A DNA stretch of 64,000 nucleotides, from assembly GCA_963828195.1 (NCBI GenBank), contig CAWHDT010000002.1, positions 14,391-78,390 of the forward strand. The letters are read 5' to 3'. Positions 5,533 to 12,724 of this stretch are shown piece after piece (position 1 is the stretch's first letter; every line of letters begins with the position of its first letter). This DNA comes from Candidatus Bathyarchaeota archaeon (lineage in GTDB: Archaea; Thermoproteota; Bathyarchaeia; Bathyarchaeales; Bathycorpusculaceae). A program made the translations under genes and the position numbers. A model generated the notes under the pieces. The model saw nothing but the letters and a program-made list of their open reading frames with translations, was not told the origin of the DNA and did not search any database.

Positions 5533-6339
5533 TCACTCCTCTTTTTGGTTGAAGAATGTTTCCAGCTTTGAGTTTTCTGTCTTCTTGAGAACTTCAGCGC
5601 AAGTTTTCGGGTCAAGCGCTTTGTATTCCAACCCAAGGGTGACCAACAGTCTCTGAACGTCTTTGGCTAGGCTGGGGGCAACGAGCACCGCGCGAATCGG
5701 GCGATTAACCTTGGCTTTGATGGGCTCAATGTATTTTGCCAATTGCAGCGCGGCTTCCTTCGACGCGGTTTTGCGTTTGACCTCTACGATTACGAGTTTG
5801 CCGTTTTTGTCTTCGCCGTAGATGTCCACGAACCCCGGCTCAACTTTTTTCTCCCAGCTGATCGGCTTGAAACCCTCTTCAAGAAGTTCAGGCTTAAGCA
5901 GGATTGCCCGATGCATGTCATCTTCGCTTGCGTGTAAAAGAAAATCGCCTGAATCATCCAAGTTTAAGGCTGAAACCATAAGCACACTGTCAAAGGTTAC
6001 TTTGACGTTTTCGCGTGGCTTCTGCCGCACCCCATGAACCTCCAGCGCGTCGTCTTTTACTTGGACATGAAAAACGCTGCCTGCAGGTTGCCAGTTGACT
6101 GGTTCGTAGCCGACTGGGCGGTGAACAAGAAGCGACCCATCCGACTTTATTATCAATATGCGTTCGCCAAGCTCAAGAGTTGAGCTAGCCCTACCGACGT
6201 AGACCACGTGGCATGCTCCTGCAACGATGAGGGTTCTTCTTTGGACGAAAGCTTTCTCAATGAGCGTGGCAGCTTCCGCAAGCGTTGGTTCGGTAAGGAC
6301 AGAGGTTTTGTTAGGTTGATGCAATTTGTTTTCAGCCAA
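5533..6339 (-). CDS. nucS: Mismatch endonuclease NucS/EndoMS
   Basis: YVGRASS, IIKSDGSLLVH, PVNWQP and RecB-like VDI...IVEVKR...QLAKY. Confidence 0.95.
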   Translation of the reverse strand: MAENKLHQPNKTSVLTEPTLAEAATLIEKAFVQRRTLIVAGACHVVYVGRASSTLELGERILIIKSDGSLLVHRPVGYEPVNWQPAGSVFHVQVKDDALEVHGVRQKPRENVKVTFDSVLMVSALNLDDSGDFLLHASEDDMHRAILLKPELLEEGFKPISWEKKVEPGFVDIYGEDKNGKLVIVEVKRKTASKEAALQLAKYIEPIKAKVNRPIRAVLVAPSLAKDVQRLLVTLGLEYKALDPKTCAEVLKKTENSKLETFFNQKEE

Positions 6340-6941: not shown

Positions 6942-7386
6942 CCTGTTTTTTGAGCGCTGTGGTTAACTTTAATGGAATTTTTGAGGTGAAGATGCAGAAC
7001 CCTTTGACCCGAATTAGGGAGAAGGAGGGGAAATGCAAAACCCCGTGAACAGTATTGGGTTAAGTGGTTCTGGGCGACCGACTCTTCAACCGCCACTATA
7101 GAAGTAAGAGCTCTATTGGCATATTCTTGTGTATGTCCTCTTAGAATACATACAGTAGGTTGCCGGCTGAAAAGCCACAGAACCCTCTTCTTGCCCAAAA
7201 AAGATGACCAAAGCATACAAGCCCTAACAAATAACGATGGTTTTGTTTGCGTTATTAAAACAGTAAATAACCTAATGATTCAATCATGAATGTTCACAGG
7301 AACAATCGACTTAAACATGTCAAATTGTTTTAATAAGACGATTTTCCTTAGATGTGAACGCTCCAAGTTGAGGCTAAGAGAGTTTA

Positions 7387-9312
7387 ATGTTAATCCAAGA
7401 AGTTATCCTTGAAAATTTCATGAGTTACGAGTATGCCAGGGTACCGTTTAAACAAGGAGTAAACGTGATCGGAGGACCCAACGGCGCAGGCAAATCCTCA
7501 CTGCTCCTAGCTGTCTCGGTCGGCTTGGGGCAATCGTACACGGAGCGCTCGCGAAAACTAAGTGATTTAATCAGGTGGGGACAGAACCAAGCGCGAGTAA
7601 CACTTATTTTAGATAACAGCAAACAGGGAAATAAGCGTCCAGTACCAAAATACCAAAAAGACCAACTTTTCTTAACCCGCGTTTTGCACCGTGACGGCAA
7701 ATACGGGTTTGAGCTTGAAAACCGAGCCGTCGGCAAACAAGATGTTGAACGGTTACTGGGCAGATTCGGCGTTGACCCCGACAACATGCTTATCATCATG
7801 CATCAGAACATGGTTGAACAATTCACCGTGCTAAGCAACACAGAAAAACTACGCATGGTTGAAGAGGCAGTGGGCTTAGAACCGTTCCGCGGAAACGTCC
7901 TGCAAGCAAAAACAAAACTTACACGAATCCTCACACAGGAAGAATCAGTGAGCAAACTTTTAGAGCAAGCGCAGCAAACGCTCAATTACTGGCGGGAACA
8001 GTACGATAAATATCAAGAGAAAAAGCAACTTCAGATCAAACGCAGATTTTTGGATCGGGAATTAACCTGGGCAGAAGTAGAAAAACGAGAAAGCATAGTT
8101 AAAAATTTACAAGCGAACTTCAACAAAAACAAGGATGCTTTAAGCAAAATTGAAGAGCAGAAACTAGCCAATACTGACCAACTGAGAAGCCAACAGAACC
8201 AGCAGGAAGCCACGAAAAAAGAAGCAAAAACGGCTTTTGACGAAAGATTAAGCCTTGAAAAACAAATTGCCCAAAACCAATCCGCACAATCACTGATTGA
8301 GCAGCTGCTTGAGGAAACAAAAACGCTGCAGCAAGCAATCCAGAGCAGCAAAAGCCCAATTAAGCTTCTTAGAAACGAAAACCTAAAAGAAATGCTCAAA
8401 AATTCGCAGCAGCAAATCTCAGAGGCATGCAAGCAAGTTGAAGAAACCCAAGCGAAAATGCTAAGTCTGGAAGAGGTATCTGACAAGGTTACAGCCGAAA
8501 TGTTAGAGAAACGGGTAAACCTTGCCCTGCTTGAGTTTAAGCGTGCAAACGCGATCGTCAACTTAAAAGAGATTGAAAAGTCACTTAAGGAAGCTGAAGA
8601 AAACCTGAAGGCAACAATTCTGAAAGCTGAGCAGTCAGGTGAACGCATAGCTGTTCTGAAAAGTGCTTCTGAAATCCAAGATGAAATCAGCTTAACCGAT
8701 GGGCATCTGGCAGCACTTGCCGCTGTATCTGAGGATATAGAGCGCCAGTATGAATCTTACTCGAAACTTTATTTGGAGCTTAAAGAAAAAGCGCAGCTTG
8801 TAGCCGAAAACCGAGAGAAAACTCTTGAAGAAGTTAAAACCCGAATGCAGTCTTGGCGAACAGTTATGGAGAACCTGCTTAATCGCGTGAACGTGCAGTA
8901 CCAGCAAATCATGAGCCAGACTTCGGCAACTGGTGAAGTGCAACTATCCAACGCTCAAGATATTGAAACCGCCGGGTTAGAAATAATGGTTGGATTCAAA
9001 GGCGGAAAACCCGTGGCTCTTAACGCTTACACGCAGAGCGGCGGCGAACGAACCACTGCAACCATGAGTTTTCTCTTAGCCCTGCAGCAGCATGTACGCT
9101 CCCCCTTTCGCGCAGTAGATGAATACGACATTCACATGGACCCAAAAAACCGCGAGATGATCGCGAAAATCCTTCTATCAACAATCAAAGATGCCAACGC
9201 CCAGTACGTCGTGATTACTCCAAGCCAAATTACCTTCGCGCAAAAAGACGCTAACGTAATCACGGTTCAAAATATTGAGGGAAAATCTGTCGTGCGTGAG
9301 GTCGTTGCTTGA
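7387..9312 (+). CDS. Short SMC-family ATPase with SMC5/6-type head motifs
   Basis: LENFMSY, Walker A GPNGAGKSS, Q-loop IMHQ, long coiled coil, signature QSGGERT, Walker B PFRAVDEYDIHMD, VVITP. Confidence 0.9.
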   Translation: MLIQEVILENFMSYEYARVPFKQGVNVIGGPNGAGKSSLLLAVSVGLGQSYTERSRKLSDLIRWGQNQARVTLILDNSKQGNKRPVPKYQKDQLFLTRVLHRDGKYGFELENRAVGKQDVERLLGRFGVDPDNMLIIMHQNMVEQFTVLSNTEKLRMVEEAVGLEPFRGNVLQAKTKLTRILTQEESVSKLLEQAQQTLNYWREQYDKYQEKKQLQIKRRFLDRELTWAEVEKRESIVKNLQANFNKNKDALSKIEEQKLANTDQLRSQQNQQEATKKEAKTAFDERLSLEKQIAQNQSAQSLIEQLLEETKTLQQAIQSSKSPIKLLRNENLKEMLKNSQQQISEACKQVEETQAKMLSLEEVSDKVTAEMLEKRVNLALLEFKRANAIVNLKEIEKSLKEAEENLKATILKAEQSGERIAVLKSASEIQDEISLTDGHLAALAAVSEDIERQYESYSKLYLELKEKAQLVAENREKTLEEVKTRMQSWRTVMENLLNRVNVQYQQIMSQTSATGEVQLSNAQDIETAGLEIMVGFKGGKPVALNAYTQSGGERTTATMSFLLALQQHVRSPFRAVDEYDIHMDPKNREMIAKILLSTIKDANAQYVVITPSQITFAQKDANVITVQNIEGKSVVREVVA

Positions 9313-10139
9313 TGCAGTCAATAAAACAGCACAAGGAGCTGGGCAAAGAAAAGCTTGAGCGCATAATTGAAATGTGCATAGCCATCGAAAACCATTCAGT
9401 AGACCCCTTCACGCTAAATATTGATGAAATAATCAAAATAGTGAGAGAATATTTCCCCCATTGGGAACATCCTGACGAGTTAAAACTAGACGCAGAAGCA
9501 CTTCACCACTTAGCCTCCGTTATTAAACTGCAGAGCGAATGGGTCAAGCAACGGTCTTCATCGCTCTATACCGACCCGTTTTTGCTGGAAGAGAAAATCT
9601 TGCAAACGGGCAAGGAAGAGATGGCGAATATTTTTCTTAAAGCCTGGAACCCGCTAATCGAGTTTGAACAAATCAGCCTAAACACTTTAGCGCAGGGATT
9701 GCTTTACTGGGAAGCCTTGGCTCCACTTAGCGAAAGATGGAAAGACATTGCTGCCTCTGAAGTTTCTATGGGTTCCGTAAGCAGAGACGAACTGATTAAA
9801 CAGCGGGTTTTAAGTGACAAGGAATTTTCTGAAGAATTGAATTGCATCTGGCAGGAACTCAAAGACTGCGTAGCTAAGAAAGGACAGGACGGGAAAATCC
9901 ATTATTGGGATTTTATCGGGGCTGACACTTACGAGGAAACAGTTCAAAAAGCTTTCTTAACAAGTTTTCTGGTTACTTACGGTTACGCGACACTAGAAAT
10001 TGACAGGTTAGAAGAGCAGGTTTTCATAAAACCCTTCGACAAACCCAGAACCGAAATTTTAACGCAGCAGTCAACATCAGTTCCCATCGCTGTCTCATGT
10101 GAAGATTGGCAGAAATGGAAAAGAGGCGAATTGGATTGA
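9309..10139 (+). CDS. Kleisin-like subunit (ScpA-like N-terminus, Nse4-like C-terminal winged helix)
   Basis: VDPFTLNIDEII...LASVIKLQS resembles the ScpA N-terminus; IHYWDFI...ETVQKAFLTSFLVTYG resembles the Nse4 C-terminus; start overlaps the SMC stop. Confidence 0.72.
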   Translation: MMQSIKQHKELGKEKLERIIEMCIAIENHSVDPFTLNIDEIIKIVREYFPHWEHPDELKLDAEALHHLASVIKLQSEWVKQRSSSLYTDPFLLEEKILQTGKEEMANIFLKAWNPLIEFEQISLNTLAQGLLYWEALAPLSERWKDIAASEVSMGSVSRDELIKQRVLSDKEFSEELNCIWQELKDCVAKKGQDGKIHYWDFIGADTYEETVQKAFLTSFLVTYGYATLEIDRLEEQVFIKPFDKPRTEILTQQSTSVPIAVSCEDWQKWKRGELD

Positions 10140-10750
10140 GCAAGACAAAAGGGATTTACGGCAGCAAAATCAAGAAGGCAACTCAGATACTTTTCTATAA
10201 GCGTCACCAGAAACCAGGCGTTAAAGGCTGGGAACTGCGCAAAGCCTTAGGTTCAGATTACCCCAAAGTGCTCGACTTACTGGACGATTACCTCAAACCT
10301 CTGGATTTACAGGTAAAAACAATTTTTGAAGAAGAAAAAACACCTGAAAAGCCAACATTGGACGAGTTGGACAAAGCAAGATTCTACGTTGCCCTAAGAG
10401 GCGACTTAGCGACGAAGGACAAGCTGATGGGGTGGCGCATCGACGACCTAGCAGGCTTAGCCATAACAATCTCCTACATCATCAGCAAGAAAGGGCAAGC
10501 AGCGCGAAAAGATGTTGAAAAACTGCTTGGCGAGAAAATGCCCAACTGGAAAATCGGCTTAAACATCGAACGCTACATTCGCTACGGCTACCTTGGGCAA
10601 GATGATAATGGCCAACTATTTTTGGATTGGAGGACACGGGCAGAAGTGGACCAAAAAGCGCTAATCAACATGTTGCTCTCAAGTGAAGCACAAAAAGCAG
10701 AAACCGCAGAGCCTAAAGAAGAAGAAATACAAGACGAAGAAAACGAATAA
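10136..10750 (+). CDS. Kite-family tandem winged-helix subunit (ScpB/Nse1/Nse3-MAGE-like)
   Basis: About 200 aa with two predicted winged helices; LAGLAITISYIISKKG...RYIRYGYL...LFLDWRTRAE; TTGA overlap with the upstream stop. Confidence 0.68.
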   Translation: MSKTKGIYGSKIKKATQILFYKRHQKPGVKGWELRKALGSDYPKVLDLLDDYLKPLDLQVKTIFEEEKTPEKPTLDELDKARFYVALRGDLATKDKLMGWRIDDLAGLAITISYIISKKGQAARKDVEKLLGEKMPNWKIGLNIERYIRYGYLGQDDNGQLFLDWRTRAEVDQKALINMLLSSEAQKAETAEPKEEEIQDEENE

Positions 10751-11085
10751 AAAAGGAAAAACCCCAATAAATCATGCATTAAATTTTAGTACCCACACAA
10801 CGGTGGATTCGCCTTGTTGATTTAGGATTTTTTTAGAGGTCAAACTAAAGAGAAACAGTTCAGTACTGCACTTGACAAATACTGGAAATTCCTTTTTATC
10901 TCGTAACAAGCAAGCCTCAGCTGCCTCGCGGCAACTTAGACCGTTGGTGTATTAAACGTGTTGGCCACGGATCAGCTGGCAGAAATGATAGTAGGATAAC
11001 CGTGGAATTAGGAGTTCCAATTGTAAGCGACGTCTCAGCGTATCCTTGCAATATATTCCAAAGCATAAAACGAGCGAGGCATAAG

Positions 11086-11385
11086 ATGTCTAAGGGCAGG
11101 AGCCGCAATCGGCATAAACTTCGGATAATTTATGATATTCTTGATTGCTGCAGTGCTAAGCCCTTAATTATCTCTCATATTGCACGCAAAGCTAACGTTA
11201 GTAGCTTGCCTTTTTATGAAATAATTGAGGGATTAATTAAATCGGGTTTATTGACTAAGCAAGAAATCGGCAAATCTGCATTCTATAAGACTTCGCCTTC
11301 TGGTTACGACTTCATTAAGAAATATCATGATTTACTTTTTATGGTTAAACCGATATTGGACGCTTCTGAAACGTTCATTGTGTAA
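11086..11385 (+). CDS. Winged-helix DNA-binding protein
   Basis: RNRHKLRIIYDIL...ISHIARKANVS...LIKSGLL...YKTSPSG. Confidence 0.8.
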   Translation: MSKGRSRNRHKLRIIYDILDCCSAKPLIISHIARKANVSSLPFYEIIEGLIKSGLLTKQEIGKSAFYKTSPSGYDFIKKYHDLLFMVKPILDASETFIV

Positions 11386-11581: not shown

Positions 11582-12724
11582 ATGAAAAGACAAATGGTCA
11601 TAGTTATCACAATTACAATTTGCTTGGTGCTGTATTCATCCATGATCTCTGCTTGTTGGGCTGATGATTCTTGGACATTGAAAGCTCCGATGCTTGAAGG
11701 TAGAAGTGGGCTAGGGGCGGTAGCTCTCAACGAAAGTATCTATGCAATTGGAGGGGCTACATCAAACGGTTTTTGCAGTTTCAACGAAGAGTATAATACA
11801 ACAACAGGAACTTGGGCATCTAAGGCATCCATGCCCACCGCTAGAAGCGCTTTTGCCATAGCAAGTTTCCAAGACAAAATCTATTGTATAGGTGGCTATG
11901 CATTGATTAATAATCAGGGATTGCCAGTTAACGTAAATGAAGTCTATGACCCAACGACTGATTCTTGGTCTACCAAAGCACCAATGCCTACGCCCGAACT
12001 AAATGTCCGTGCAAATGTTATTGATGGTAAAATCTATGTGATTGGTGGCAATAATAATGGAACGTTAAACCAAGTATACGACCCATTGACTGATTCATGG
12101 ACAATTGAAGCACCCATACCAACTGCTGTAAGTTCCTATGCTTCTGCAGTAGCATATGGGAAAATCTACATATTCACAAGCAACCTGACGCAAATCTATA
12201 ATCCAACAAACGATAGTTGGAGCAACGGAACACCTGCTCCTTTACCCATAATCTTGGCAAACGCTGGAGTTACTTCAGGGGTATATGCACCAGAAAGGAT
12301 TTACATATTTGGCGTTAATGCTCAACTACCTTATTGGCAACTAACCACAAAAGGGTTTATAACTCAGAGTTATGACCCAAAAAATGATAGTTGGCAAACA
12401 TGCAGTCCCATGCAGAATGGGCGTTATGACGTTGGCGTCGCAAGTGTCAATGATTTACTTTTCTTAATCGGTGGCTATACCACTCAATCAGGGTCAGGGC
12501 TTAACCCAAACCCCATTTACACCTACAGCACAGTAAATGAACAGTATACGCCATTAGATTACAGCACTACACCACTACCAACTGACCCATCAAGCGTTCC
12601 AGAGCTGACTTATTGCGCACCTCTAATCGTTTTCTTCTTCGGAACCATAACTGTAATAGTCTTAATTGCTAAAAAAAGCGGTCAACCTTTTACTCCACTA
12701 AAGACAGCGCCCACCCGTTTTTAG
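11582..12724 (+). CDS. Secreted, membrane-anchored Kelch-repeat protein
   Basis: Signal peptide; repeats IYAIGG, IYCIGG, IYVIGG with YDP..DSW; C-terminal VPEL followed by a TM segment and KK (PEF-CTERM-like). Confidence 0.9.
   Translation: MKRQMVIVITITICLVLYSSMISACWADDSWTLKAPMLEGRSGLGAVALNESIYAIGGATSNGFCSFNEEYNTTTGTWASKASMPTARSAFAIASFQDKIYCIGGYALINNQGLPVNVNEVYDPTTDSWSTKAPMPTPELNVRANVIDGKIYVIGGNNNGTLNQVYDPLTDSWTIEAPIPTAVSSYASAVAYGKIYIFTSNLTQIYNPTNDSWSNGTPAPLPIILANAGVTSGVYAPERIYIFGVNAQLPYWQLTTKGFITQSYDPKNDSWQTCSPMQNGRYDVGVASVNDLLFLIGGYTTQSGSGLNPNPIYTYSTVNEQYTPLDYSTTPLPTDPSSVPELTYCAPLIVFFFGTITVIVLIAKKSGQPFTPLKTAPTRF

What the first reader, a model, noticed from the sequence alone, without database searches (positions are those of the whole stretch)
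7387..10750. Minimal archaeal SMC5/6-like complex: SMC + Nse4-like kleisin + Nse1/Nse3(MAGE)-like kite in one coupled operon
Seen: three genes joined by TTGA stop/start overlaps. The SMC C-terminal head reads QSGGERTTATMSFLLALQQHVRSPFRAVDEYDIHMDPKNRE. Knowledge: eukaryotic Smc5 has QSGGERS...LQ...PFRVVDE...MDP.NE and Smc6 has DEFDVFMD, whereas canonical prokaryotic Smc has (L/M)SGGE...DE(V/I)(D/E)AxLD. Gene 2 has an ScpA-like N-terminus and a C-terminal TV..AF..SFL winged helix like Nse4 (TVEN.F..SFL). Gene 3 ends YL...LFLDWRTRAE, echoing the MAGE/Nse3 YL...F.WGPRA.AE pattern. Inference: a symmetric one-SMC, one-kleisin, one-kite form of SMC5/6. Archaeal SMC5/6-related proteins have been noted in phylogenomic surveys, but I know of no functional characterisation of this operon type.
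Basis: partly seen in the sequence, partly recalled or inferred. Interest (0 to 1): 0.9.

Follow-up and report, generated by a model that had tools for sequence, protein, structure and literature searches.

The report
Hinge-less archaeal SMC5/6-like operon
Three coupled genes in a Bathyarchaeia genome encode the archaeal relative of the eukaryotic Smc5/6 genome-maintenance complex, an operon type already in print, though its motor protein has short arms and no hinge.

Summary
Three same-strand genes at 7387-10750 overlap at their junctions and carry the quoted motifs.

The interpretation also holds.
- Gene 1 (641 aa) is an SMC ATPase. Its family profile scores best against solved Smc6 and Smc5 (238-195 bits), ahead of Pyrococcus Smc (180), SMC1-4 (152 or less) and Rad50 (49).
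- Gene 2 carries an Nse4-type C-terminal winged helix.
- Gene 3 folds confidently (pLDDT 91) into a tandem winged-helix kite. Its nearest structures are Nse3 and Nse1 (Z 13.1 and 11.0).

The same genome has a separate canonical Smc-ScpA-ScpB operon and Rad50/Mre11. The three-gene order is kept in 18 of 20 diverse Thermoproteota loci.

It is not new. SMC5/6-related archaeal SMCs, Bathyarchaeota included, were published in 2021. The full SMC-kleisin-kite operon is in a 2024/25 preprint. Three earlier reports of this scan reached the same reading on other genomes.

Two things remain open. I found no functional study. The texts I could read do not mention that this SMC has half-length arms ending in a bare hairpin with no hinge.

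Identity is well supported. The mechanism (an ATP-driven DNA clamp or loop holder for chromosome maintenance) is inferred.

The parts
7387..9312 (+). SMC5/6-related SMC ATPase, 641 aa. N-terminal head to about residue 160, antiparallel coiled-coil arm (helix 165-320, apex loop 321-327, helices 328-417, 427-443 and 451-511), C-terminal head from about 512. No hinge domain.
   Evidence: ORF. Pfam SMC_N 9.1e-29 with no SMC_hinge hit at E<=1. PDB profile scores: Smc6 237.8 bits, Smc5 228.8, Pyrococcus Smc 179.9. AlphaFold2 model with pLDDT 82. Foldseek top hit is Smc6 8i4x_B at 5.6e-21. Invariant in the 20-sequence family alignment: GPNGxGKSS, Q140 within the MHQ motif, SGGER, D578-E579, ITP.
9312..10139 (+). 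Nse4-like kleisin, 275 aa from ATG 9312 (TTG 9309 is also possible). The C-terminal winged-helix domain spans about residues 185-245.
   Evidence: Pfam Nse4_C 4e-5, 24.2 bits against a cut-off of 26. 10 of 19 family members hit Nse4_C, best 3.5e-7, and none hit ScpA or Rad21. Family profile against PDB: yeast Nse4 9.2e-5, human EID3 2.8e-4, ScpA 0.79. hhalign against ScpA-like kleisins of canonical operons: probability 95%, E 4.1e-8, C-terminal 77 columns only.
10115..10750 (+). Nse1/Nse3 (MAGE)-like kite, a tandem winged-helix protein of 211 aa from ATG 10115. The start is ambiguous: TTG 10106, ATG 10115 or TTG 10136.
   Evidence: AlphaFold2 pLDDT 91.4, pTM 0.80. Foldseek: Nse1 7dg2_A 3.8e-5, NSE1 5hvq_C 4.6e-5, Nse3 7dg2_C 7.8e-5, JetB 2.9e-4, ScpB 1.5e-3, MukE 5.2e-3. 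VIA-align: Nse3 7dg2_C Z 13.1 (rmsd 3.7, 172 aligned), NSE1 Z 11.0, JetB 9.3, ScpB 9.1. Family profile against PDB: 7dg2_C 1e-4. Pfam SMC_Nse1 in 8 of 43 members and MAGE in 6 of 43.
7328..7337 (+). A+T-rich TTTTAATAAG, a possible archaeal TATA-like box 50-59 nt upstream of the gene 1 ATG. GAGG at 7370-7373 is a possible ribosome-binding site. Both are inference only.
   Evidence: Read directly from the sequence. Not tested.
10828..10834 (+). Run of seven T about 80 nt after the gene 3 stop, a possible archaeal oligo-T terminator. Inference only.
   Evidence: Read directly from the sequence. Not tested.

Best explanation
This is the Bathyarchaeia copy of the archaeal 'SMC5/6-related' complex. 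It is a second SMC machine, encoded beside a canonical Smc-ScpAB elsewhere in the genome.

Inferred assembly:
- Two copies of the 641-aa SMC ATPase engage their heads around two ATP.
- One Nse4-like kleisin bridges the two heads.
- A dimer of the single Nse1/Nse3-like kite sits on the middle of the kleisin.

Inferred action:
- Kite, kleisin and engaged heads together clamp double-stranded DNA, and ATP turnover opens and closes the clamp.
- The arms are half length and end in a plain hairpin. The ring therefore cannot be closed by a hinge. It is more likely a head-proximal clamp, with arms that zip alongside each other or meet only weakly at their tips.
- Its role is most likely housekeeping chromosome maintenance (repair, junction or segregation tasks), as for eukaryotic Smc5/6.

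Shown here: gene order, family identities, folds, intact ATPase motifs, conservation.
Inferred: stoichiometry, DNA clamping, cellular role.

The confidence given (0.8) is for the identity of the system. For the hinge-less clamp mechanism and the housekeeping role I would put it near 0.5.
For: SMC identity:
- Single sequence against PDB: best hits are human SMC6 at 6.5e-30 and yeast Smc5 at 1.4e-29.
- 20-sequence family profile: the top 10 distinct PDB sequences are all Smc5 or Smc6 (237.8-194.6 bits). Next come Pyrococcus Smc 179.9, SMC2 152.1 and Rad50 48.7.
- C-terminal head profile alone: SMC5 99.8 and 99.0, human SMC6 72.4, Pyrococcus Smc 65.0, SMC3 44.4, SMC1 41.7.
- Foldseek on the model: 8 of the first 9 rows are Smc5/6 chains.
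- Reciprocal control: the genome's 1183-aa canonical Smc hits Pyrococcus Smc at 351.9 bits, then SMC2, 4, 3 and 1 and the hinge structures. None of its 49 hits at E<=1e-10 is Smc5/6.

Kleisin. Kite.

ATPase motifs are invariant across 20 family members.

Second, canonical operon in the genome: Smc, an ScpA-like protein (Pfam 4e-5) and ScpB (7.7e-37).

Conservation:
- Kleisin found in 35 of 41 relatives.
- SMC found in 108 of 201 genomes of the phylum at E<=1e-20.
- SMC-kleisin-kite order kept in 18 of 20 diverse loci.
- Single copy of each gene in this genome.
- Two families in the sample have this SMC (16 of 17 and 7 of 8 genomes) but no ScpA-like kleisin with my query (0 of 9 and 0 of 5). 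This fits a housekeeping role.

Kleisin-kite binding: weak support only. Score 0.54, best control 0.00. The mark was reached by 116 of 157 solved complexes and 2 of 215 mismatches. At 0.60 or under it was reached by only 18 of those 157 and by both passing mismatches. The runs agree in at least 75% of contacts and the partner pLDDT is at least 72. The pass may reflect memory of solved Nse1/3/4 complexes.

Published phylogenies place Bathyarchaeota and other TACK 'SMC5/6-related aSMC' next to SMC5+6 (PMC8665677, section 8 and passages). They place the neighbouring kleisins and kites with Nse4 and Nse1/3 (bioRxiv 10.1101/2024.01.07.573240, sections 8 and 14).
Against: - The N-terminal head profile does not discriminate: Smc6 94.8, Smc5 91.5, Smc2 head 91.1 bits.
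- Part of the full-length score comes from coiled-coil alignment, with bias of about 20 bits per stretch.
- I built no tree with eukaryotic sequences. None could be obtained.
- The window kleisin's own Nse4_C score (24.2 bits) is under Pfam's cut-off of 26. Its N-terminal domain matched no kleisin profile.
- The window kite has no Pfam hit of its own. Only 8 and 6 of 43 family members hit SMC_Nse1 and MAGE.
- No hinge means the textbook hinge-closed ring cannot be assumed. How two SMC chains are held together is therefore unknown.
- PADLOC gives LmuB (Lamassu SMC-like) at 7e-23 for the ATPase.
- There is no expression or biochemical evidence of any kind.
Confidence: 0.8

Rival explanations
1. 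It is an SMC-based defence system against plasmids or viruses, in the manner of Wadjet (JetABC) or Lamassu (LmuB), and not a chromosome-maintenance complex.
For: PADLOC gives LmuB at 7e-23 (79.6 bits, over residues 1-570) and mad3 at 2.5e-20 for the ATPase. Like this protein, the PADLOC LmuB profiles that matched it best are of similar length (610 and 611 positions). JetB is among the kite's structural matches (2.9e-4; Z 9.3). From general knowledge, eukaryotic Smc5/6 also restricts episomal viral DNA.
Against: - The LmuB score is well below the Smc5/6 scores (107.8 bits single sequence; 237.8 bits profile).
- Kleisin and kite have 0 PADLOC hits.
- The operon holds no nuclease or other effector gene.
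- The flanking genes are not defence genes, and none recurs beside the operon in 20 diverse loci.
- The operon is single copy and widely kept: 35 of 41 relatives and 108 of 201 genomes of the phylum. Defence systems are usually patchy.
Confidence: 0.08
2. It is simply a second, divergent condensin-type Smc-ScpAB. The Smc5/6 likeness would be a long-branch or convergent signal with no special evolutionary tie.
For: The N-terminal head profile scores Smc2 heads within 4 bits of Smc5/6. Pyrococcus Smc ranks third by fold. The published support for the node joining eight of these archaeal homologs to SMC5+6 is moderate (59%/70%/0.97) and weaker after recoding (PMC8665677, section 8). The preprint could not reject monophyly of all eukaryotic SMCs (p-AU 0.317).
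Against: Three independent proteins point the same way.
- The C-terminal head scores Smc5 35 bits above any SMC that is not Smc5/6.
- The kleisin hits Nse4 and not ScpA.
- The kite is nearest to Nse3 and Nse1 and not ScpB.

In addition, the genome's true Smc-ScpAB gives the opposite pattern.
Confidence: 0.08
3. It is a Rad50/RecN-type double-strand-break repair ATPase with accessory proteins, and is not an SMC-kleisin machine.
For: It has short arms without a hinge, as in RecN and Rad50-like proteins. There are weak NCBIfam hits to Rad50 (4.7e-19, N-terminal part) and RecN (4.2e-6).
Against: - Rad50 scores only 48.7 bits against the family profile, versus 237.8 for Smc6.
- There is no CxxC hook. 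The middle region holds 0-2 cysteines in 20 members.
- The genome has its own Rad50 and a Rad50-like gene next to Mre11.
- The partners are a kleisin and a kite and not Mre11.
Confidence: 0.02

Closest known systems
Archaeal 'SMC5/6-related' complex: SMC5/6-related aSMC (Yoshinaga & Inagaki 2021, PMC8665677) with Nse4-related kleisin and Nse1/3-like kite in one operon (van Hooff, Raas, Tromer & Eme, bioRxiv 10.1101/2024.01.07.573240)
   Same: Same three subunit types, the same single-operon arrangement and a second canonical SMC operon in the same genome. The lineage is TACK/Thermoproteota, and Bathyarchaeota are named in the 2021 paper. The present operon is a member.
   Different: Nothing differs in kind. 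The main texts I read do not mention the short arms or the missing hinge. In the preprint, 'hinge' occurs only in the general introduction and 'shorter' does not occur. In the 2021 paper, 'hinge' occurs only in the introduction and the reference list.
Eukaryotic Smc5/6 core (Smc5-Smc6, Nse4, Nse1-Nse3)
   Same: Best sequence and fold matches for all three proteins. Shared head motifs: QSGGER...ALQ...PFRxVDE as in Smc5, DE(F/Y)DxxMDxxNR as in Smc6, and ITP in place of the usual H-loop region.
   Different: - One SMC gene instead of two, and one kite gene instead of two.
- The kite has no RING domain: it is 211 aa, all of it winged helix.
- No hinge, and arms of about 150 residues instead of about 350.
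- No zf-Nse (Nse2) hit in the genome, but that search had no positive control.
- Nse5/6 were not searched.
Prokaryotic Smc-ScpAB
   Same: Same SMC, kleisin and kite architecture and the same gene order (smc, kleisin, kite). The kleisin C-terminal winged helix is homologous (hhalign probability 95%). ScpB is a lower-ranking structural match of the kite.
   Different: The genome has its own Smc-ScpAB with a hinge. The present proteins do not reach the ScpA or ScpB Pfam models.
Wadjet JetABC / MukBEF and Lamassu LmuB
   Same: SMC-family ATPase with kleisin and kite (Wadjet, MukBEF), or a short SMC-like ATPase (LmuB). JetB and MukE appear among the kite's fold matches, and LmuB among the PADLOC hits.
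   Different: Scores are much weaker than for Smc5/6. There is no JetD-type or LmuA-type effector. The gene order differs from jetABCD and mukFEB (that order is from general knowledge).

Membership tests
Archaeal SMC5/6-related complex | SMC paralogue closer to Smc5/Smc6 than to canonical Smc or SMC1-4 | tested here: met
   with the reciprocal control. The N-terminal head alone is not discriminating. No tree was built here; the trees are in PMC8665677 and the 2024/25 preprint.
Archaeal SMC5/6-related complex | Adjacent kleisin of the Nse4 type | tested here: met
   Nse4_C in 10 of 19 members. Nse4 at 9.2e-5 and EID3 at 2.8e-4 against ScpA at 0.79. The window protein alone scores 24.2 bits, under the cut-off of 26.
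Archaeal SMC5/6-related complex | Adjacent kite of the Nse1/Nse3 type | tested here: met
   Fold: Nse3 Z 13.1 and NSE1 Z 11.0; Foldseek 3.8e-5 to 7.8e-5. Profile: 7dg2_C at 1e-4. Pfam SMC_Nse1 in 8 of 43 members and MAGE in 6 of 43, with no ScpB or MukE hit listed.
Archaeal SMC5/6-related complex | All three genes in one operon, distinct from the canonical Smc operon | tested here: met
   (overlapping genes). 18 of 20 diverse loci keep the order. The canonical operon lies on another contig.
SMC protein (strict sense) | Central hinge dimerisation domain between two long coiled-coil arms | tested here: not met
   No SMC_hinge hit at E<=1. The model shows a 7-residue apex loop between helices 165-320 and 328-417. 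The region between invariant W228 and N475 varies from 169 to 289 aa in 20 members and is unconserved. No member longer than 774 aa appears among the 150 listed phylum matches. No long form was found among proteins over 1122 aa, which is weak evidence.
SMC protein (strict sense) | ABC-type head with Walker A, Q-loop, signature and Walker B/D-loop motifs | tested here: met
   GPNGxGKSS, Q140 within MHQ, SGGER and D578-E579 (DE(F/Y)DxHxD) are invariant in 20 sequences.
Eukaryotic Smc5/6 holocomplex | Smc5-Smc6 heterodimer and Nse1-Nse3 heterodimer | tested here: not met
   One SMC of this type at E<=1e-20 and one kite gene in a genome that is 96% complete.
Eukaryotic Smc5/6 holocomplex | Nse1 RING domain and Nse2 SUMO ligase | tested here: inconclusive
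   The kite is 211 aa with only the two winged helices and no RING hit. The zf-Nse search of the genome found nothing, but it also rang in none of the 14 control genomes.
Kleisin | C-terminal winged helix that binds the SMC head cap | tested here: met
   The homology is met: hhalign probability 95%, E 4.1e-8 against ScpA-like kleisins, plus Nse4_C. The binding itself was not tested.
Kleisin | N-terminal helical domain that binds the SMC neck | tested here: inconclusive
   A conserved N-terminal block exists (DPF.VDV...L..LR). No profile match to ScpA, Rad21 or Nse4 N-termini was obtained.
KITE | Tandem winged-helix fold; dimer bound to the middle of the kleisin | tested here: met
   The fold is met. 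Binding to the kleisin has weak support only: 0.54 against a best control of 0.00. Dimerisation was not tested separately.
Wadjet / Lamassu defence systems | SMC-like ATPase together with a nuclease or other effector (JetD, LmuA) | tested here: not met
   No fourth gene in the operon. 0 PADLOC hits for genes 2 and 3. The flanks encode NucS, a methyltransferase and a winged-helix protein, none of them conserved beside the operon.

The most novel reading that the evidence does not exclude
The archaeal relative of Smc5/6 is not a hinge-closed ring at all. It would be a compact, hinge-less head clamp, held together only by ATP-engaged heads, the kleisin and a kite dimer.

If the short form is ancestral, the long arms and hinge of eukaryotic Smc5/6 were gained or re-gained later. 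If it is derived, Thermoproteota show that an SMC-kleisin-kite machine can work without a hinge. Either way it would be the smallest natural SMC-kleisin-kite complex and a direct test of what arms and hinge are for.
Probability: 0.3. Interest if true: 0.7.

Novelty: already known. Interest (0 to 1): 0.4.

Why it matters
Eukaryotic Smc5/6 is the least understood SMC complex, and its origin bears on eukaryogenesis. The archaeal version needs one SMC, one kleisin and one kite gene, about 1,130 residues of unique sequence in all. That makes it an attractive minimal model for structure and single-molecule work.

Its missing hinge raises a concrete question: can an SMC-kleisin-kite machine hold or extrude DNA without a hinge-closed ring? 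As a genomic finding, however, it repeats what two papers and three earlier reports of this scan already state.

Tried and rejected
- Literature searches with a slash in a term failed on syntax and were resent without it (then 13 and 28).
The C-terminal head alignment worked, but the best 80 loci were all near relatives. I therefore could not sample Asgard or other phyla.
- The search among proteins longer than 1122 aa gave only canonical hinge-bearing SMCs at 98 bits or less. The tool itself calls a blank weak evidence.
- No RNA holder was listed for the operon.
- The single-sequence PDB search for the kite found nothing. For the kleisin it gave only E 0.58-1.2.
- In the kite profile search, a designed helical repeat protein scored 2.6e-6. 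This came from four weak repeated stretches and I treat it as spurious.
- The N-terminal head profile did not separate Smc5/6 from Smc2.
- The zf-Nse genome search had no positive control.
- A 'hinge-less SMC' literature search found only a marine actinobacterial group, which is unrelated.
- Conserved neighbours were sought and none was found.
- The Rad50/RecN reading and the defence reading were considered and rated low. See the rival explanations.

Full report
WHAT IS THERE

Three + strand ORFs fill 7387-10750: 7387-9312 (641 aa), 9309/9312-10139 (276/275 aa) and 10106-10750 (214 aa at most).

At the first junction the TGA stop (9310-9312) overlaps both a TTG (9309) and an ATG (9312). Homologues are almost all 275 aa, which favours the ATG.

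At the second junction the stop (10137-10139) overlaps TTG 10136. ATG 10115 and TTG 10106 lie in the same frame, and the start is not settled.

Names attached to near-identical proteins and contigs are Candidatus Bathyarchaeia/Bathyarchaeota. The assembly has 2.83 Mb in 9 contigs and is 96% complete.

GENE 1: AN SMC ATPASE OF THE SMC5/6 TYPE

- Pfam gives SMC_N at 9.1e-29 and no hinge family at E<=1.
- NCBIfam gives SMC_prok_A at 165 bits, far under its cut-off of 729. Weaker hits go to Rad50, ASRP and arcadin-4.
- Against solved structures the single sequence hits human SMC6 (6.5e-30) and yeast Smc5 (1.4e-29) first, then Pyrococcus Smc (3.8e-27).

I collected 20 diverse loci from the phylum and aligned 19 full-length SMCs with the window protein. 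L029 was left out because its gene is cut by a contig end.

The family profile scores yeast Smc6 237.8, yeast Smc5 228.8, human SMC6 227.1 and human SMC5 194.6 bits. Then come Pyrococcus Smc 179.9, SMC2 152.1, SMC3 about 125, SMC4 about 112 and Rad50 48.7. Part of that score is coiled coil, so I repeated the search with the heads alone.
- The N-terminal head does not discriminate: Smc6 94.8, Smc5 91.5, Smc2 head 91.1.
- The C-terminal head does: SMC5 99.8 and 99.0, human SMC6 72.4, Pyrococcus Smc 65.0, yeast Smc6 60.4, SMC3 44.4, SMC1 41.7.

The printed alignments show the shared QSGGER...ALQ...PFRxVDE and ITP of Smc5. They also show the DEFDVxMDxxNR of Smc6.

As a control, the genome's own 1183-aa Smc hits Pyrococcus Smc (351.9 bits), SMC2, 4, 3 and 1 and hinge structures. 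It hits no Smc5/6 among 49 matches at E<=1e-10.

Foldseek on the model puts Smc6 first (5.6e-21). Smc5/6 chains take 8 of the first 9 rows, and Pyrococcus Smc is third.

I built no tree, because no eukaryotic sequences could be obtained.

THE MISSING HINGE

The AlphaFold2 model (pLDDT 82, pTM 0.57) has one helix from 165 to 320 and a 7-residue loop (321-327, pLDDT under 50). It returns through helices 328-417, 427-443 and 451-511 to the C-terminal head. That is a bare hairpin with arms of roughly 150 residues.

In the family alignment the apex is the only unconserved part. The stretch between invariant W228 and N475 ranges from 169 to 289 residues. It holds 0-2 cysteines, so there is no zinc hook.

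All 150 listed matches in 201 genomes of the phylum lie in open frames of 774 aa or less. A search among proteins over 1122 aa found only canonical hinge-bearing SMCs at 98 bits or less. The tool calls such a blank weak evidence.

Walker A, Q-loop, signature and Walker B/D-loop residues are invariant. An active ATPase is therefore expected.

GENE 2: AN NSE4-LIKE KLEISIN

- The window protein hits Pfam Nse4_C at 4e-5 (24.2 bits, cut-off 26).
- Of 19 family members, 10 hit Nse4_C (best 3.5e-7). None hit ScpA or Rad21/Rec8. These 19 are the window plus 18 of the 19 loci with a kleisin. L034's copy lies apart on the other strand and was left out.
- The profile finds yeast Nse4 (9.2e-5) and human EID3 (2.8e-4), with ScpA only at 0.79.
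- Compared by hhalign with the ScpA-like kleisins of canonical operons, the C-terminal winged helix aligns at 95% probability, E 4.1e-8. That alignment used 20 of the 24 ORFs found; four truncated ones were dropped. The N-terminal part does not align.

The 'ScpA-like N-terminus' is therefore unconfirmed. A conserved N-terminal block does exist.

GENE 3: AN NSE1/NSE3-LIKE KITE

The window protein alone has no Pfam, NCBIfam or PDB sequence hit. An exhaustive search of 1.84 billion representatives found only 124 clusters at E<=0.001.

I aligned the window protein with 35 full-length representatives and 7 locus proteins, 43 rows in all.
- The profile hits 7dg2_C, the MAGE/Nse3 chain of an Nse1-Nse3-Nse4 complex, at 1e-4. 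It hits MAGE-G1 at 0.014 and NSE1 at 0.043. A designed repeat protein at 2.6e-6 is spurious.
- Pfam SMC_Nse1 is hit by 8 of 43 members (best 4.7e-6) and MAGE by 6 of 43 (best 5.3e-4). Every other family listed is hit by one member only.
- The model is confident (pLDDT 91.4, pTM 0.80) and shows two winged helices.
- Foldseek ranks Nse1 (3.8e-5), NSE1 (4.6e-5) and Nse3 (7.8e-5) ahead of JetB (2.9e-4), ScpB (1.5e-3) and MukE (5.2e-3).
- VIA-align gives Nse3 Z 13.1 (rmsd 3.7, 172 aligned) and NSE1 Z 11.0 (rmsd 3.4, 155 aligned). JetB scores 9.3 and ScpB 9.1.

A complex prediction of the kleisin with two kite copies gave weak support: 0.54 against a best control of 0.00. The mark was reached by 116 of 157 solved complexes and 2 of 215 mismatches. 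At 0.60 or under it was reached by only 18 of the 157 and by both passing mismatches. The runs agree in at least 75% of contacts and the partner pLDDT is at least 72. The pass may come from memory of solved Nse1/3/4 complexes.

CONTEXT

Elsewhere in the genome lies a coupled operon with three genes:
- Smc (1183 aa);
- an ScpA-like protein (Pfam ScpA 4e-5, Rad21_Rec8 0.0018);
- ScpB (7.7e-37).

A Rad50 and a Rad50-like gene next to Mre11 are also present.

Each gene of the present operon is single copy.

The kleisin is found in 35 of 41 relatives. The SMC is found in 108 of 201 genomes of the phylum at E<=1e-20. The order SMC-kleisin-kite holds in 18 of 20 diverse loci. One of the other two is cut by a contig end. 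The other has the kleisin upstream on the other strand, near a contig end.

The window's neighbours are NucS, a methyltransferase, a winged-helix protein, a Kelch protein and arginine decarboxylase. None of them recurs beside the operon.

By anonymous family label, the sample shows four patterns:
- both complexes present;
- only the SMC5/6-like one (16 of 17 and 7 of 8 genomes with this SMC, against 0 of 9 and 0 of 5 with an ScpA-like match);
- only the canonical one (0 of 26 against 10 of 10);
- neither.

The two searches drew different samples and used single queries, so these are 'not found' counts and not absences.

PADLOC gives LmuB at 7e-23 for the ATPase and nothing for the two partners.

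HOW IT PROBABLY WORKS (INFERRED)

Two SMC chains engage their heads on ATP. A kite homodimer sits on the middle of the kleisin. Together they clamp DNA on the heads, as in the DNA-bound Smc5/6 core (PMC9191643; I saw only the abstract in a search listing).

Without a hinge the arms cannot close a ring in the usual way. They may zip, touch at the tips or stay free. A housekeeping role in chromosome maintenance is more likely than defence. The reasons are wide conservation, single copy, no effector gene, and lineages where it seems to be the only SMC complex.

COMPARISON WITH WHAT IS KNOWN

Yoshinaga & Inagaki 2021 (PMC8665677; I read section 8 and passages of sections 10, 13 and 14) defined 'SMC5/6-related aSMC'.
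- They found 80 such homologues, 66 of them in TACK archaea, with Bathyarchaeota named.
- 44 of the 80 co-occur with a canonical aSMC.
- The authors proposed separate homodimeric complexes.

Van Hooff et al. (bioRxiv 10.1101/2024.01.07.573240; I read the abstract and sections 8 and 14) report the following.
- Nse4 branches with TACK/Asgard kleisins.
- Archaeal kites include an Nse1/3-like type.
- Many archaea carry two complete operons, one condensin/cohesin-related and one SMC5/6-related.

The present operon is a member of that described kind.

Searches for a functional study found none in the library. Neither main text mentions short arms or a missing hinge. A search for 'hinge-less' found only an unrelated actinobacterial group.

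Three earlier reports of this scan on other Bathyarchaeia genomes reached the same reading. I saw them after my own tests, and they are not independent evidence.

VERDICT

The residual interest lies in the hinge-less, half-length architecture and in the lack of any experiment.

Noticed in passing
window 5533-6339 (-): A NucS/EndoMS mismatch endonuclease gene (NucS_N 2.2e-26, NucS_C 1.9e-27) lies about 1 kb upstream on the opposite strand. It is not found beside the operon in 20 diverse loci, so the adjacency looks incidental.
   Followed up: partly
L133-L136 (G058, G073, G089, G081): In four genomes of one family, the match to the canonical ScpA-like kleisin contains one in-frame TGA. In three of the four, the longest ORF from a start codon is correspondingly short (172-179 aa). 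This could be a shared frameshift, a split gene or recoding.
   Followed up: no
phylum sample: Families of the phylum differ in which SMC complex was found: both, only the SMC5/6-like one, only the canonical one, or neither. This echoes the either-or pattern reported by Yoshinaga & Inagaki.
   Followed up: partly
L048, L061, L120: Contigs that encode an 89-92% or 82% identical SMC head are titled Candidatus Acidoferrum sp., Limnocylindrales bacterium and Methanocella sp. They are probably mis-binned Bathyarchaeia contigs.
   Followed up: no
L005 and L008 (own genome): There is a second Rad50-like ATPase directly after an Mre11 gene, in addition to a 920-aa Rad50 (L003). On another contig there is a PtuA/retron-effector-like ATPase, a possible defence gene.
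   Followed up: partly
window 11582-12724 (+): A Kelch-repeat protein of 380 aa (Kelch_1 1.2e-32) with hydrophobic N- and C-terminal segments. It is preceded by a small winged-helix protein (11002-11385).
   Followed up: no
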